Below, piece after piece: positions 4,818 through 8,429 of a stretch of 11,019 nt of DNA. The stretch is taken from IMG/VR virus record IMGVR_UViG_2600254997_000001; one strand, given 5' to 3'. The number at the start of each line of letters is the position of its first letter. Within the stretch, counting starts at the first letter, position 1. A program made the translations under genes and the position numbers. The DNA is from a virus (taxonomy: Duplodnaviria > Heunggongvirae > Uroviricota > Caudoviricetes). A model generated the notes under the pieces. The model had not been told where the DNA came from and ran no database searches. It saw only the letters and a list, made by a program, of their open reading frames with translations.

Positions 4818-6066
4818 ATGAGTCGAATAGTACCATTTATACACCTGCATTTGTTGAAAGTATTTCAAAATTACCTTGAAACTCAGGAAATTGATCCTCG
4901 ATATTTCTACTACATCATTTTCGGCCTAAAAATCCTCTGTGCCGAAGCATTCCCCGGTTTCACCCTCGACGATTACGAAGACCTCGAATTTATCCCTCGC
5001 CCGCATTCCCACGACTGGGACATCTATCAGGAAATCGACCATGTTCTGGATCCGCTCGAAAAAAGCATGATCAGTAAAGGCTTGTTTGAAATGGCTACGT
5101 CGATTCGCTATGGCGAAAACTACAGTTTGAACACCATTCGAGATGCATCAATTCTGGGACTGACTTATGTCACCGGAGCCCGCCCGGCACAACTGGCCAA
5201 GCTGGCAACAAAAGATTTGCGCATTGATACCCGAAACCCCGAAACCGGGTTAATACGCTATAGCTTACTTCTGCCCTACGCCAAACAGCGGCGCGTAACG
5301 ACTGAACGTCTGTTTTTGGCGATTCCAGCGGAAATCGGCGCGTTGATTAGGCACTATATCGAGCGAGCGCAACTAAAACCTGATGGCAAGTTATTTGAAT
5401 TTAGTCACTCTGCACCATTTTATGTGTCCAAGGCGATTAGCAAGGCCATCCTCAGATTCAGTCCTCCAGATTATCAGGCTGCCGTAGCGCGTGGCGAAGC
5501 GGCTTTGCCAACCATTACGCCGACCGACTTGCGCCACAACGTGGGCCATTCACTGGCTATGCAAGGGGGCAGCGCCGAAGAAATTGCGCATATTACTGGG
5601 ACATACCTCACTTACTGTTGCCAAGTATTACATCCTGGCGACGCCTGCGCTGGCACTGATTCGAGCCAAATCATTGGGTACCAATCCGGTATGGCAAAAC
5701 ATGGTAGCTATGATGTTGACAGGTGAACTGACCTCTTCAACGGAATGGCAAGGCCAGCGCGTGGTCGGCATAGTCGGTGATCAGTTGCATGATGGGATTG
5801 GCGGTTGCTCCAGAGATGATGGCGAATGTCCGTTCTGTGAAGTACGCTGCTGCTACGGTTGCCTGTATTACCGCCCCTTTACTGATGGTGACCACCAGGC
5901 GGTGCTGGAGAGTGTAGTTAAAGAAGTCGATGAATTGATTTCCATTTCAGACAGTGTTGGCAACGCCCGCAATCCACTTATTTCCATCCATGAAACCACA
6001 CAATTTGAAATTCAATCCGTGATTGCCCGTTGCCGTTTTCATCAAGAAAAAGGCGGTGTGCGATGA
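4818..6066 (+). pseudogene. Tyrosine recombinase 2 (GinB-like position) with an apparent +1 frameshift at the LLGH box, and a Cys-rich C-terminal extension
   Basis: Frame 3 (4818-5726) carries GARPAQLAKL (Arg box) and LRHNVGHSLAMQGGSAEEIAHI. Frame 1 (5491-6066) carries LGHTSLTVAKYYI (LGH plus catalytic Tyr). Removing one base near 5590-5596 gives LRHNVGHSLAMQGGSAEEIAHILGH, the same 25-residue spacing as XerC [25 protein letters not shown] (recalled). The stop overlaps the next gene's ATG (ATGA at 6063-6066). Confidence 0.65.
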
Positions 6067-8429
6067 AAAAACATTTTGCGCAGTTTCACGCCTTTATCAC
6101 CGAGCAGCAAAGCTGGTTTGAACAGCATCTGGCGGCAGACTTCGATCAGTCATGGGATGACCCTGTTTGGGTCTGCGGCAGCAATGGTAGTGGCTGGTTA
6201 CGTGGTAATGGCAAAAATAAATTACGCTTTGATGAAATCAGCCGTACCAAAGGTATTGAGGGGCGTCATGCCGTGGAAGAAGACTATGCCCGGTTTATGA
6301 AAGCCCTGCTGGTACTGGTGTATCGGAGGAGAAATCGAAGTATATCCCCAGCGGTGGCAGTGGCAACACTGATGATTTTGAAGCGCTGGTACCACTCACT
6401 ATTTGAGTTGACCGGGCAAACCCACCCAGTGTATCTAACCACAGGGGTAATTCAACGGTCGATGGATAGCCTCAGCACAGCTTCATCTCTAGGGGATCCC
6501 AATACCGCCAATTACAAAGGACGTTGTGTCAGTCTGCAAAAACTGGTTAATCACCAGTCATTCACACTGGTGACATTGCAATATGTGTCCGATGGGCAAT
6601 ATACCAATCAAACCAACCTCACCCGCAAAGCCCGGGAAACCATGGCGCTGAAACAGCAGTACACGCTGGCTGATACCACTACCGATGGTGAAGATGCGTT
6701 GATTACCATTCGTGGTTTTCTGAACATAGTTGCATTAATCCAGCGGGTGGAAAGTGATGCTGAGAAAATTGCGTTAAATTGCCTGTTGTTATTGGTTATC
6801 ACCGGCTTTCGCTCCATTGAAGCGTTTAATCTCAGACAGGATGCGCTGTTTAAACGCCAGATTGATGATCCGGCAATCCGCAAGCGGTTTCAGGACAAGG
6901 GATTACCCGATTATTTCCTTGGTATCCGTTATGTTGGTGTCAAAGGTGCAGGGGAGCGAACGCATTGGGTAGAACCGCTGGCAGCACCTCTGGTCGAGAG
7001 TATATTCAGTTCCGTTAAAATATTGACCGCACCAATACGCAGTCATCTGACCTATCTACGGGCGAAATCTTTTACTGATTACCTGCCACAGGCCATCAGC
7101 GCCCTGCCCGGTGAACGAGTCGAACTGGATGATGTGGTGACGTACATCACACAAACTACCTCAAGCTTTCGTGGCCGGGCAGGACAACGAGACAAAACAT
7201 CCAAAGCCCTCAGCAAACGAGGTGTGCTGCCCGTTCAAGAAATGCCAGGGCCAAAAAACAGCAAATCTATCTATTATTCCAAGACTGACCTTAATCATTA
7301 CATCAAGACCGAATTTGGCCTGACGAATGCCAACGAACCCTGTACGCACGCCTGGATGGAAAATGGCAAACGCTACGAAGTTAACTACGAAGACCTGTTA
7401 TTTCTACATGAGAAGGGTTCGCTGGCATTAAAGCGCACACTGGCTTTGCTGGCTATACCGATACCCTTCACTAACACACTTATGAATAAATTTTTAGGCA
7501 ATGTTGAGCCTGATGGATCAGTATTCAGCAAATATCAATTACTGGAAGAGAATGGTACCCCCACCCGGATGCGTACCCACATTCCCCGGCACAACATCAA
7601 TACCTTTCTTGCCATTGCGGATATCGCTGACCACTTACAGGCAATGCTGATGGGGAGAGTGGACATCACGCAGAATCAGCACTATCAGCATCTGGCGCTT
7701 GCAGAACGGCGAAAAGCAGCCTCGTTGGTGCCCTTGCAGCCGATATCGACAGCACTAACTGCCGCGCCCTCTTCGTCCTCCGTTGCTACGCCACTGGAAA
7801 TCGTCAAACGGACCGGCCAACTGGCGGTCACGGAACACATGACTTTGGACAATACCATCAAAGCCAACCTGCATACTTTTGACGATCGGGATGATGTAGC
7901 TAGGTTTGTCGAGGCGTCATTTGCTGACGGCCTCTTTGAAGATGTTGCTGCCGCCTTTGAAGAAATCCGCGACGCAGAAGGACCAGAGCAAGCCTCTGCC
8001 ATGGTGGCAAGACATGCCGTGATGTATCCGCTGAAATTTGGCTCCTGTATGCGGGAAGTTAACCTCTGGGGATGTCCTTATCGACTGAAATGCCAGAGTG
8101 CTGCCTTTTGTGAACATTTCACGCTGACAGGCCGGATAGATGAGCTACCCAATCTGATTGCCAAAAAACAGGCGTTACAGCAAGCACATTCGAAGTTGAC
8201 CCAACTTACACAACATCAGCCTGACTACCAGACCAGACTGGCCGACATCGAACGACGGTTACAGCAACTCGAGGCAATACAAGCACAATGGCAGCGTCGT
8301 GCCAAGACTCAACAACTGGTTGCTGCGGAGAGTGTGTTGTCTGGTGGAGTAATCACCGAGGGCAAAGTCCGTACACTGGCCCAGCTTTTTGCACTTGAAT
8401 ACCAACAATTGATGCAGGAGAACGACTGA
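6063..8429 (+). CDS. Large tyrosine recombinase 3 (about 788 aa from the ATG at 6063; GinC-like position) with a long N-terminal region and a Cys-rich, coiled-coil C-terminal extension
   Basis: Catalytic boxes ITGFRSIEAFNLRQDAL (Arg), HIPRHNINTFL (HxxR) and LMGRVDITQNQHYQH (Tyr). C-terminal CMREVNLWGCPYRLKCQSAAFCEH, then a Gln/Leu-rich coiled-coil-like stretch. The ORF track starts at a TTG at 6030; the ATG at 6063 has an upstream GGCGG and overlaps the preceding stop, so it is the preferred start. Confidence 0.8.
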   Translation: MKKHFAQFHAFITEQQSWFEQHLAADFDQSWDDPVWVCGSNGSGWLRGNGKNKLRFDEISRTKGIEGRHAVEEDYARFMKALLVLVYRRRNRSISPAVAVATLMILKRWYHSLFELTGQTHPVYLTTGVIQRSMDSLSTASSLGDPNTANYKGRCVSLQKLVNHQSFTLVTLQYVSDGQYTNQTNLTRKARETMALKQQYTLADTTTDGEDALITIRGFLNIVALIQRVESDAEKIALNCLLLLVITGFRSIEAFNLRQDALFKRQIDDPAIRKRFQDKGLPDYFLGIRYVGVKGAGERTHWVEPLAAPLVESIFSSVKILTAPIRSHLTYLRAKSFTDYLPQAISALPGERVELDDVVTYITQTTSSFRGRAGQRDKTSKALSKRGVLPVQEMPGPKNSKSIYYSKTDLNHYIKTEFGLTNANEPCTHAWMENGKRYEVNYEDLLFLHEKGSLALKRTLALLAIPIPFTNTLMNKFLGNVEPDGSVFSKYQLLEENGTPTRMRTHIPRHNINTFLAIADIADHLQAMLMGRVDITQNQHYQHLALAERRKAASLVPLQPISTALTAAPSSSSVATPLEIVKRTGQLAVTEHMTLDNTIKANLHTFDDRDDVARFVEASFADGLFEDVAAAFEEIRDAEGPEQASAMVARHAVMYPLKFGSCMREVNLWGCPYRLKCQSAAFCEHFTLTGRIDELPNLIAKKQALQQAHSKLTQLTQHQPDYQTRLADIERRLQQLEAIQAQWQRRAKTQQLVAAESVLSGGVITEGKVRTLAQLFALEYQQLMQEND

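What the first reader, a model, noticed from the sequence alone, without database searches (positions are those of the whole stretch)
5806..8118. Cysteine clusters in the C-terminal extensions of recombinases 2 and 3
Recombinase 2 has CSRDDGECPFCEVRCCYGC (about 5806-5862) after its catalytic Tyr. Recombinase 3 has CMREVNLWGCPYRLKCQSAAFCEH (about 8046-8118), followed by a long coiled-coil-like tail. Ordinary Xer or lambda-type integrases lack such Cys-rich C-terminal modules. They may be zinc-binding domains mediating the hetero-oligomer assembly that a three-recombinase system presumably needs.
Basis: inference. Interest (0 to 1): 0.4.

Follow-up and report, generated by a model that had tools for sequence, protein, structure and literature searches.

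The report
Conserved four-cysteine modules in GInt recombinases
The two cysteine clusters are real, strictly conserved four-cysteine (probably metal-binding) modules in the tails of GinB and GinC, two of the four proteins that move a known kind of mobile genomic island (GInt), and I found no description of them in print.

Summary
Both Cys strings translate exactly as quoted, in the correct frames. The three "recombinases" plus the small protein are the ginABCD operon of a GInt, a genomic island with three integrases (Bardaji 2017), sitting next to the E. coli dif site.

- **GinB:** four of the six clustered Cys (C431, C438, C446, C449) and H460 are invariant in all 67 full-length homologues aligned (down to about 37% identity).
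- **GinC:** all four Cys (C662, C671, C677, C683) are invariant in 86 homologues.
- **Distant GInts:** the same C4 signature recurs in every intact GinB and GinC examined, including GinC relatives that HMMER matched only through the central domain.
- **Exception:** the only loss is in a decayed ginC remnant.
- **GinA** lacks the motif.

Profile comparison suggests the GinB and GinC modules are homologous: Cys4 followed by a helical hairpin. AlphaFold models are fair to good (pLDDT 84 and 72). They have no PDB fold relative, and no Pfam model was detected over the modules at E <= 0.01.

Metal binding (Zn most likely, Fe-S not excluded) is inferred. A role in hetero-oligomer assembly is plausible but untested.

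In this window ginB is a pseudogene (278-bp deletion plus a 1-bp insertion), so this copy is probably immobile.

The parts
3409..4809 (+). ginA: first tyrosine recombinase (466 aa from the GTG used in RefSeq; a longer ORF starts at 3346). It has no Cys cluster.
   Evidence: WP_001409388.1 site-specific integrase; Pfam PF00589 E 3.8e-5; GinA tails of four GInts lack the motif.
4793..6066 (+). ginB: second tyrosine recombinase, a pseudogene here. A 278-bp deletion lies between 4870 and 4871, and a 1-bp insertion (A) lies at 5595, just before the catalytic Tyr codon region. The intact form is 516 aa.
   Evidence: Alignment to L001; RefSeq annotation of the intact copy; none of the best-matching complete E. 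coli genomes shares the lesions.
5755..6057 (+). GinB C-terminal extension (residues 414-514 of intact GinB): beta-hairpin, Cys4 loop, short strand, two long helices.
   Evidence: AlphaFold2 model meff0bddd5ee6, mean pLDDT 84.4, pTM 0.77.
5806..5895 (+). GinB metal-ligand signature C431-x6-C438-x7-C446-Y-G-C449-x10-H460. Codons are 5806-5808, 5827-5829, 5851-5853, 5860-5862 and 5893-5895. C441 and C445 lie inside it but are variable.
   Evidence: Invariant in 67 of 67 full-length homologues, in alignment A4, in 35 of 35 intact GinB ORFs from genome loci and in three distant GInts.
6063..8429 (+). ginC: 788-aa tyrosine-recombinase-related protein; its start overlaps the ginB stop (ATGA).
   Evidence: WP_000716056.1 hypothetical protein; no Pfam or NCBIfam hit; box II weakly aligns to XerD.
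8046..8111 (+). GinC Cys4 signature C662-x8-C671-x5-C677-Q-x4-C683. Codons are 8046-8048, 8073-8075, 8091-8093 and 8109-8111. It is followed by invariant F686, T689-G-R691 and E694.
   Evidence: Invariant in 86 of 86 sequences and in alignments A1 and A3. It is present in all 41 genome loci that code for an uninterrupted C-terminal region, including three with split ORFs, and in all full-length representatives, including distant ones.
8142..8420 (+). GinC helical hairpin (residues about 694-749) and conserved terminal helix (about 772-786, TLAQLFALE).
   Evidence: AlphaFold2 model md6e21227239d, mean pLDDT 72; invariant L772, F776, E779.
8429..8863 (+). ginD: 144-aa small fourth protein of the operon. 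It has no Cys cluster.
   Evidence: It has the size and position of GinD as described in PMC5385486.

Best explanation
The window carries the recombination operon ginABCD of a GInt. GinB is an active-type tyrosine recombinase and GinC is a recombinase-related protein. Each ends in a homologous C-terminal module: short beta-strands, four invariant cysteines (plus an invariant His in GinB) and a helical hairpin.

The four cysteines most likely chelate one structural metal ion, with Zn2+ as the default expectation. The metal would rigidify a small knuckle that positions the helical hairpin.

The module starts directly after the C-terminal helices of the catalytic domain, the segment that in Cre, lambda Int and XerCD reaches into the neighbouring protomer. 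I therefore infer that it acts at protomer interfaces of the four-protein recombination complex. It could dock GinB with GinC and/or with the coiled-coil protein GinD. Conserved Arg and Lys residues on the knuckle may also touch DNA.

Shown here: the motif, its frame, its strict conservation across the family, its absence from GinA, and its predicted fold elements. Inferred: metal binding, the identity of the metal, and the assembly role.
For: - **Identity of the system:** there are three co-oriented, overlapping recombinase-type genes plus a small gene. The four-gene arrangement recurs around distant relatives. This matches the published GInt definition, and GInts are reported in 7.5% of Escherichia replicons.
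- **GinB conservation:** C431, C438, C446, C449 and H460 are invariant.
- **GinC conservation:** C662, C671, C677 and C683 are invariant.
- **Distant GinC relatives:** those found by a full-length profile through their central domain only still carry G-x-C-x7-9-C-x4-6-C-x2-5-C at the same place.
- **Sole loss:** the one missing Cys is in a truncated ginC remnant.
- **Constraint:** the Cys window of GinB is about as conserved as the active-site boxes (0.78 against a mean of 0.56).
- **Homology of the modules:** GinC C-terminus against distant GinC C-terminus gives hhalign probability 98%, E 2.5e-13. GinB C-terminus against the same set gives probability 61%, E 8e-5 over 85 columns, with the Cys aligned.
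- **Structure:** the GinB extension is modelled with pLDDT 84 and pTM 0.77 as a compact domain, with a CxxC knuckle just before a strand. In GinC the Cys region is followed by a helical hairpin.
- **GinA** lacks the module.
Against:
- Confidence is lowest in the Cys loops themselves (pLDDT about 77 in GinB and 65-76 in GinC).
- A direct GinB-GinC profile comparison is not significant (E 0.12 and 0.077). Homology of the two modules rests on a transitive match of moderate probability.
- Nothing tested here distinguishes protein-protein from protein-DNA contacts.
Confidence: 0.6

Rival explanations
1. The four cysteines bind an iron-sulfur cluster (for example [4Fe-4S]) rather than zinc. This would resemble the clusters in several DNA-processing enzymes and could make recombination sensitive to redox state or iron.
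For: There are exactly four invariant Cys with loop spacings (x6-x7-x2 in GinB, x8-x5-x5 or x8-x5-x2/3 in GinC relatives) rather than two classical CxxC knuckles. A conserved Cys-Pro is also present. No zinc-fold match was found.
Against: GinB ends with a classical C-Y-G-C knuckle and an invariant nearby His, which is more typical of structural Zn sites. No Fe-S signature family was hit in Pfam or NCBIfam. This cannot be decided from sequence.
Confidence: 0.15
2. The module is primarily a DNA-binding element that reads the GInt ends or the target site. It would resemble the zinc-ribbon domain of large serine integrases or the zinc fingers of TnsF/Tsy, and would not be an oligomerisation device.
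For: Conserved basic residues sit on the knuckles: GinB R444 is invariant, and R433 and R453 are mostly conserved. In GinC, R674, K676 and R691 are conserved. In TnsF/Tsy, zinc fingers fused to a tyrosine-recombinase fold act in target selection (PMC10293859).
Against: The module sits at the C-terminus, where tyrosine recombinases make trans-protomer contacts, and it is followed by a long helical hairpin typical of protein-protein interfaces. No DNA-binding fold was recovered. The two roles are not mutually exclusive.
Confidence: 0.2
3. The cysteines are conserved for a reason other than metal binding, such as disulfides, redox sensing or packing.
For: No direct evidence for a metal; the Cys loops have lower model confidence.
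Against: These are cytoplasmic proteins. All four positions are kept in every intact sequence across very divergent clades, with variable spacers. That pattern is the classical one for metal ligands.
Confidence: 0.05

Closest known systems
GInt (genomic island with three integrases) ginABCD operon, Bardaji et al. 2017 (PMC5385486); survey by Idola et al. 2023 (PMC10214605)
   Same: Gene order and sizes match: two recombinases with catalytic motifs, a large recombinase-related third protein annotated as hypothetical, and a small fourth protein. The genes overlap in one operon, with cargo downstream. GInts are reported in Escherichia and Pectobacterium, genera that also appear among the homologue hosts found here.
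   Different: Neither paper's main text mentions cysteines, zinc or a C-terminal domain in GinB or GinC. The GinC clade here appears to keep the box I Arg and the box II H-x-x-R...Y signature, whereas the literature describes GinC as lacking catalytic residues. This copy has a broken ginB.
Zinc-ribbon domain with embedded coiled coil of large serine integrases (phiC31, A118, Bxb1 type)
   Same: Functional analogy only. Both have a Cys4 metal knuckle followed by a long helical or coiled-coil element, appended C-terminal to the catalytic domain of a site-specific recombinase. In the serine integrases this element binds DNA and controls synapsis and directionality (my own knowledge; background in PMC3556126, listed).
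   Different: The catalytic superfamily is unrelated (serine versus tyrosine). No sequence or fold match was found. In the serine integrases the coiled coil is inserted within the zinc ribbon; here the helical hairpin follows the Cys4 loop.
TnsF / Tsy tyrosine-recombinase-fold proteins with zinc fingers (Faure et al. 2023, PMC10293859)
   Same: These are multi-protein tyrosine-recombinase transposition systems (YRec + HTH + TnsF). One recombinase-fold protein carries Cys-rich zinc fingers and acts as an accessory or target-selecting subunit.
   Different: The TnsF zinc fingers are multiple, N-terminal and LIM-like. The GInt module is a single Cys4 unit, C-terminal, and present in two of the three recombinase-type proteins. 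Homology was not tested.
Tn554 (TnpA, TnpB, TnpC) and strand-biased circularizing integrative elements (IntA, Tfp, IntB, Srap)
   Same: These are multi-recombinase integrative elements with a small auxiliary protein. GinD is reported to resemble TnpC.
   Different: SE and GInt proteins form separate clusters. IntB of SEs is large because of its N-terminus. Whether TnpB, IntB or Tfp carry a Cys4 module could not be tested, because the sequences were not obtainable.

Membership tests
GInt (ginABCD genomic island) | Operon of three tyrosine-recombinase-type genes followed by a small gene, all co-oriented | tested here: met
   ginA 3409-4809, ginB 4793-6066, ginC 6063-8429 and ginD 8429-8863 have overlapping stops and starts. 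Distant relatives show the same four-gene pattern.
GInt (ginABCD genomic island) | GinA and GinB carry the tyrosine-recombinase catalytic domain and motif | tested here: met
   PF00589 hits have E about 4e-5 but are below the gathering score. NCBIfam Xer-type and integrase_1 hits were found. R223, K257, R340, H341 and Y372 are invariant in GinB.
GInt (ginABCD genomic island) | GinC is a recombinase-fold protein with an incomplete catalytic motif | tested here: inconclusive
   There is no Pfam or NCBIfam hit. Box II aligns weakly to XerD (E 3.7), with H506, R509, R532 and Y541 at the positions of XerD H244, R247, H270 and Y279 (XerD residue numbers from my own knowledge). TGFRSxE with R250 is invariant. 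The motif therefore looks nearly complete in this clade.
GInt (ginABCD genomic island) | Sequence relationship to experimentally studied GInts (P. stutzeri DSM 4166, P. syringae Tox island) | not tested
The link rests on architecture and on the published report of GInts in Escherichia.
GInt (ginABCD genomic island) | Cargo region, AT-rich 3' end, flanking imperfect direct repeats, circular excision product | not testable with these tools
   The window ends inside the cargo (retron Ec78 ptuB at 10369-11019). The element's ends were not mapped, and excision needs experiment.
Structural zinc-binding (Cys4) domain | Four invariant Cys/His ligands arranged in loops or knuckles | tested here: met
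Structural zinc-binding (Cys4) domain | Fold similarity to a known zinc ribbon, treble clef or zinc finger | tested here: not met
Structural zinc-binding (Cys4) domain | Stoichiometric bound metal | not testable with these tools
   Needs ICP-MS, PAR assay or X-ray fluorescence on purified protein.
Large-serine-integrase zinc-ribbon/coiled-coil domain | Homology to the serine-integrase ZD-CC module | tested here: not met
   No such hit appeared in Pfam, in the PDB profile search or in the fold searches. The resemblance is functional analogy only.

The most novel reading that the evidence does not exclude
GinB and GinC share a previously undescribed metal-dependent C-terminal domain (Cys4 knuckle plus helical hairpin, with no solved structural relative). 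It would be the heterotypic docking and regulatory element of the four-protein GInt recombination machine. That would explain why three recombinase-type proteins are needed and how their activities are ordered. The metal could even be a redox-active Fe-S cluster that gates island excision.
Probability: 0.3. Interest if true: 0.6.

Novelty: new variant of a known kind. Interest (0 to 1): 0.45.

Why it matters
GInts move virulence, resistance and, as here, anti-phage defence cargo. How they work is still unknown: why four proteins are essential, which subunits cleave, and whether they copy out like SEs.

A strictly conserved Cys4-plus-hairpin module is present in two of the three recombinase-type subunits and absent from the third. 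That gives a concrete, cheap handle on the problem:
- Cys-to-Ser mutants.
- Domain deletions or swaps.
- Metal analysis.
- Co-purification.

It also gives a sharp sequence signature for annotating GinB and GinC, which databases now call 'site-specific integrase' and 'hypothetical protein'. Finally, it extends the known architectures of tyrosine recombinases with a C-terminal metal module, analogous to the zinc-ribbon/coiled-coil of large serine integrases.

Tried and rejected
- **Direct GinB versus GinC comparison:** hhalign of the C-termini (E 0.12) and of the full-length profiles (E 0.077 on an irrelevant stretch) was not significant. Only the transitive comparison through distant GinC C-termini gave support.
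- **PDB sequence-profile searches** with both C-terminal alignments returned only chance or coiled-coil hits.
- **Second homologue search** with a GinB alignment added few new sequences.
- **Family scans:** NCBIfam and Pfam scans of ten distant GinC relatives gave no family.
- **SE reference:** the attempt to fetch pSEA1 (LC081338), to test SE proteins for the motif, failed because the record is not held.
- **Literature:** searches for cysteine or zinc in GInt, SE, Tn554 or tyrosine-recombinase papers found no prior description.
- **Rejected, wrong frame:** the idea that the GinB cluster is a wrong-frame artefact is ruled out by the intact 516-aa homologue.
- **Rejected, six ligands:** the idea that all six GinB Cys are ligands is ruled out, because C441 and C445 vary.
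Full report
**Observation**

If each protein's own cysteines are placed at random, such clustering is expected with p of about 1e-4 for recombinase 2 and about 4e-3 for recombinase 3. The features are real and non-random.

**What the locus is**

Between 3346 and 8863 the ORF list shows four co-oriented, overlapping genes. The first two hit the Phage_integrase domain weakly (E about 4e-5). The third and fourth hit nothing in Pfam.

The region is 99.9% identical to chromosomes of many E. coli strains. In strain MB64 (L001) RefSeq annotates:
- a 466-aa site-specific integrase;
- a 516-aa site-specific integrase;
- a 788-aa hypothetical protein;
- a 144-aa hypothetical protein.

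These are followed by an Xre/MbcA pair and the retron Ec78 genes ptuB, ptuA and RT.

This is the architecture of a GInt, a 'genomic island with three integrases'. Its ginABCD operon encodes two tyrosine recombinases, a recombinase-related third protein and a small fourth protein, and all four are essential for excision and integration (PMC5385486). GInts are distinct from the SE elements and were detected in 7.5% of Escherichia replicons (PMC10214605). I therefore call the genes ginA (3409-4809), ginB (4793-6066), ginC (6063-8429) and ginD (8429-8863).

Sequence relatedness to the experimentally studied Pseudomonas GInts was not tested directly. Instead, a full-length GinC profile recovered distant relatives. 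The three whose contexts I inspected all sit in the same four-gene arrangement.

**The frameshift in recombinase 2**

Alignment to L001 shows that the window's ginB has two lesions:
- A 278-bp deletion between 4870 and 4871 (L001 7572-7849, with 1 bp of microhomology).
- An extra A at 5595, a few codons before the catalytic-Tyr helix (AHILGHTSLTVAKYY).

The best-matching complete E. coli genomes all have the intact gene. In the intact 516-aa protein the Cys string is read in frame, 59 residues after the invariant Tyr372. However, ginB is a pseudogene in this particular copy. Because all four genes are reported to be essential, this copy is probably immobile.

**Conservation of the cysteines**

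*GinB.* In 67 full-length homologues down to about 37% identity (Enterobacterales, Aeromonas, Vibrio, Shewanella, Photobacterium), C431, C438, C446, C449 and H460 are invariant. C441, C445 and C506 vary, mostly to Ser or Ala. The core signature is G-[GK]-C-x5-7-C-x7-C-Y-G-C-x10-H. It lies in one of the most conserved stretches of the protein, comparable with the active-site boxes.

*GinC.* In 86 homologues down to 40% identity, all four Cys (C662, C671, C677, C683) are invariant. So are Q678, F686, T689-G-R691 and E694.

*Independent genomic sample.* A scan of one genome per species gave 43 loci (Escherichia, Enterobacter, Klebsiella, Acinetobacter, Psychrobacter, Moraxella, Aeromonas, Shewanella). 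The results were as follows:
- 35 of 35 intact GinB ORFs carry the motif.
- Every locus that codes for an uninterrupted GinC C-terminal region carries it.
- This includes three loci with split ORFs.
- The single exception is a truncated ginC remnant in Moraxella canis, with Tyr in place of the first Cys. That fits relaxed selection on a pseudogene.

*Less biased test.* I searched 1.84 billion cluster representatives with the full-length GinC profile. Distant relatives of 630-730 aa were matched only through the central recombinase-like domain. Every full-length one nevertheless has G-x-C-x7-9-C-x4-6-C-x2-5-C about 85-105 residues after the H-x-x-R-[HY] box. In three such distant GInts the neighbouring GinB also has C-x4-7-C-x7-C-Y-T-C-x10-H, whereas GinA has no such motif.

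The Cys4 signature is thus a family-wide hallmark of GinB and GinC.

**Are the two modules related?**

- Direct profile comparison of the E. coli-type GinB and GinC C-termini aligns only GGCxR...CPF with GSCMR...CPY and is not significant (E 0.12; full-length comparison).
- Comparison through the distant GinC C-termini is informative. GinC against distant GinC gives probability 98%, E 2.5e-13.
- GinB against distant GinC gives probability 61%, E 8e-5 over 85 columns. The four Cys and the following helices are in register.

I take this as moderate evidence that GinB and GinC share one ancestral C-terminal module.

**Structure**

AlphaFold2 was run on family alignments.
- The GinB extension is a confident compact domain (pLDDT 84, pTM 0.77). 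It has a beta-hairpin ending at the first Cys, a loop with the second Cys, the C-Y-G-C knuckle immediately before a short strand, and then two long antiparallel helices that start at the invariant His.
- The GinC region has lower confidence (pLDDT 72). It has short strands and a short helix around the Cys, a helical hairpin, and a conserved terminal helix.

**Mechanism**

Four ligands that are kept in every intact sequence, with variable spacers, in cytoplasmic proteins form the classical signature of a metal site. Structural Zn is the default. The CxxC knuckle and the nearby invariant His in GinB fit this. A [4Fe-4S] cluster cannot be excluded from sequence.

The module begins right after the helices that follow the catalytic Tyr. 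In Cre, lambda Int and XerCD this segment packs onto the neighbouring protomer and controls which subunits are active (established knowledge, not tested here). The module is also followed by a long helical hairpin.

I therefore think the most likely role is at subunit interfaces of the GinA/B/C/D complex, possibly together with the coiled-coil protein GinD. Conserved basic residues may contact DNA. DNA recognition, as in the zinc-ribbon/coiled-coil of large serine integrases or the zinc fingers of TnsF/Tsy (PMC10293859), is a serious rival and is not exclusive.

**Novelty**

The element type is known. Neither GInt/SE paper mentions cysteine, zinc or a C-terminal domain in its main text. The tyrosine-recombinase classification paper does not either. 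Further full-text searches found no description. Within what I could search, the Cys4-hairpin module is an undescribed, family-defining feature: a new architectural variant of tyrosine recombinases inside a known mobile-element family.

It is of moderate interest. It does not overturn anything, but it gives a direct experimental handle on an unexplained four-protein recombination machine.

Noticed in passing
window 3235-3262: A dif-like XerCD site (AGTGCGCATAATGTATATTATGTTAAAT, 1 mismatch to E. coli dif, 0 expected by chance) lies about 150 bp upstream of ginA. In strain MB64 the same junction follows hipBA directly. This E. coli GInt therefore sits immediately next to dif.
   Followed up: partly
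window 1-3000: A filamentous-prophage remnant with fragmented genes lies between the host flank and dif, as expected for a dif-integrating filamentous phage. Zot is in at least two pieces (665-946, 1086-1538). A pIV-type secretin is in pieces (2001-2330 with a Secretin_N hit, 2333-2974 with a Secretin hit, and possibly the unmatched ORF 1717-1983). MB64 lacks this remnant.
   Followed up: partly
window 4870/4871 and 5595: ginB is inactivated by a 278-bp deletion and a 1-bp insertion. None of the best-matching complete E. coli genomes shares these lesions, so this GInt copy is probably immobile.
   Followed up: yes
window 10369-11019 (- strand) and L001 13347-16584: The GInt cargo begins with an Xre/MbcA antitoxin-like pair (8980-9490, - strand). 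It then carries the retron Ec78 defence system (ptuB, ptuA and a reverse transcriptase annotated as 'retron St85 family'). The cargo is thus an anti-phage system. The distant GInts L045, L046 and L048 also carry genes that look defence-related (HEPN/Toprim/SLFN-like, RecD2-like helicase plus T5orf172, VPA1267).
   Followed up: partly
window 6807-6821 (R250 region) and 7578-7691 (GinC residues 506-543): This GinC clade keeps invariant TGFRSxE (R250) and H506-x-x-R509-H510 ... R532 ... Y541-x-H543. The spacing is identical to XerD H244, R247, H270 and Y279 (offset 262; XerD numbers from my own knowledge). The published view is that GinC lacks catalytic residues. Statistical support for the XerD alignment is weak (E 3.7).
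   Followed up: partly
L044 about 6600-6700 (Moraxella canis): A truncated ginC remnant has Tyr in place of the first conserved Cys (GFYVKQMVNWGCVYRLKCQSGEFCPHF). This is the only loss of a ligand seen, and it occurs in a pseudogene.
   Followed up: yes
protein P0357 (1194 aa): One metagenomic relative looks like a tandem duplication or fusion of two GinC-like units, with the Cys motif at the end of the second unit.
   Followed up: no
window 9588-10148: Two adjacent small ORFs (80 and 98 aa) correspond to a gene annotated in MB64 as a pseudogene with an internal stop. No family was detected for the first ORF; the second was not scanned.
   Followed up: no
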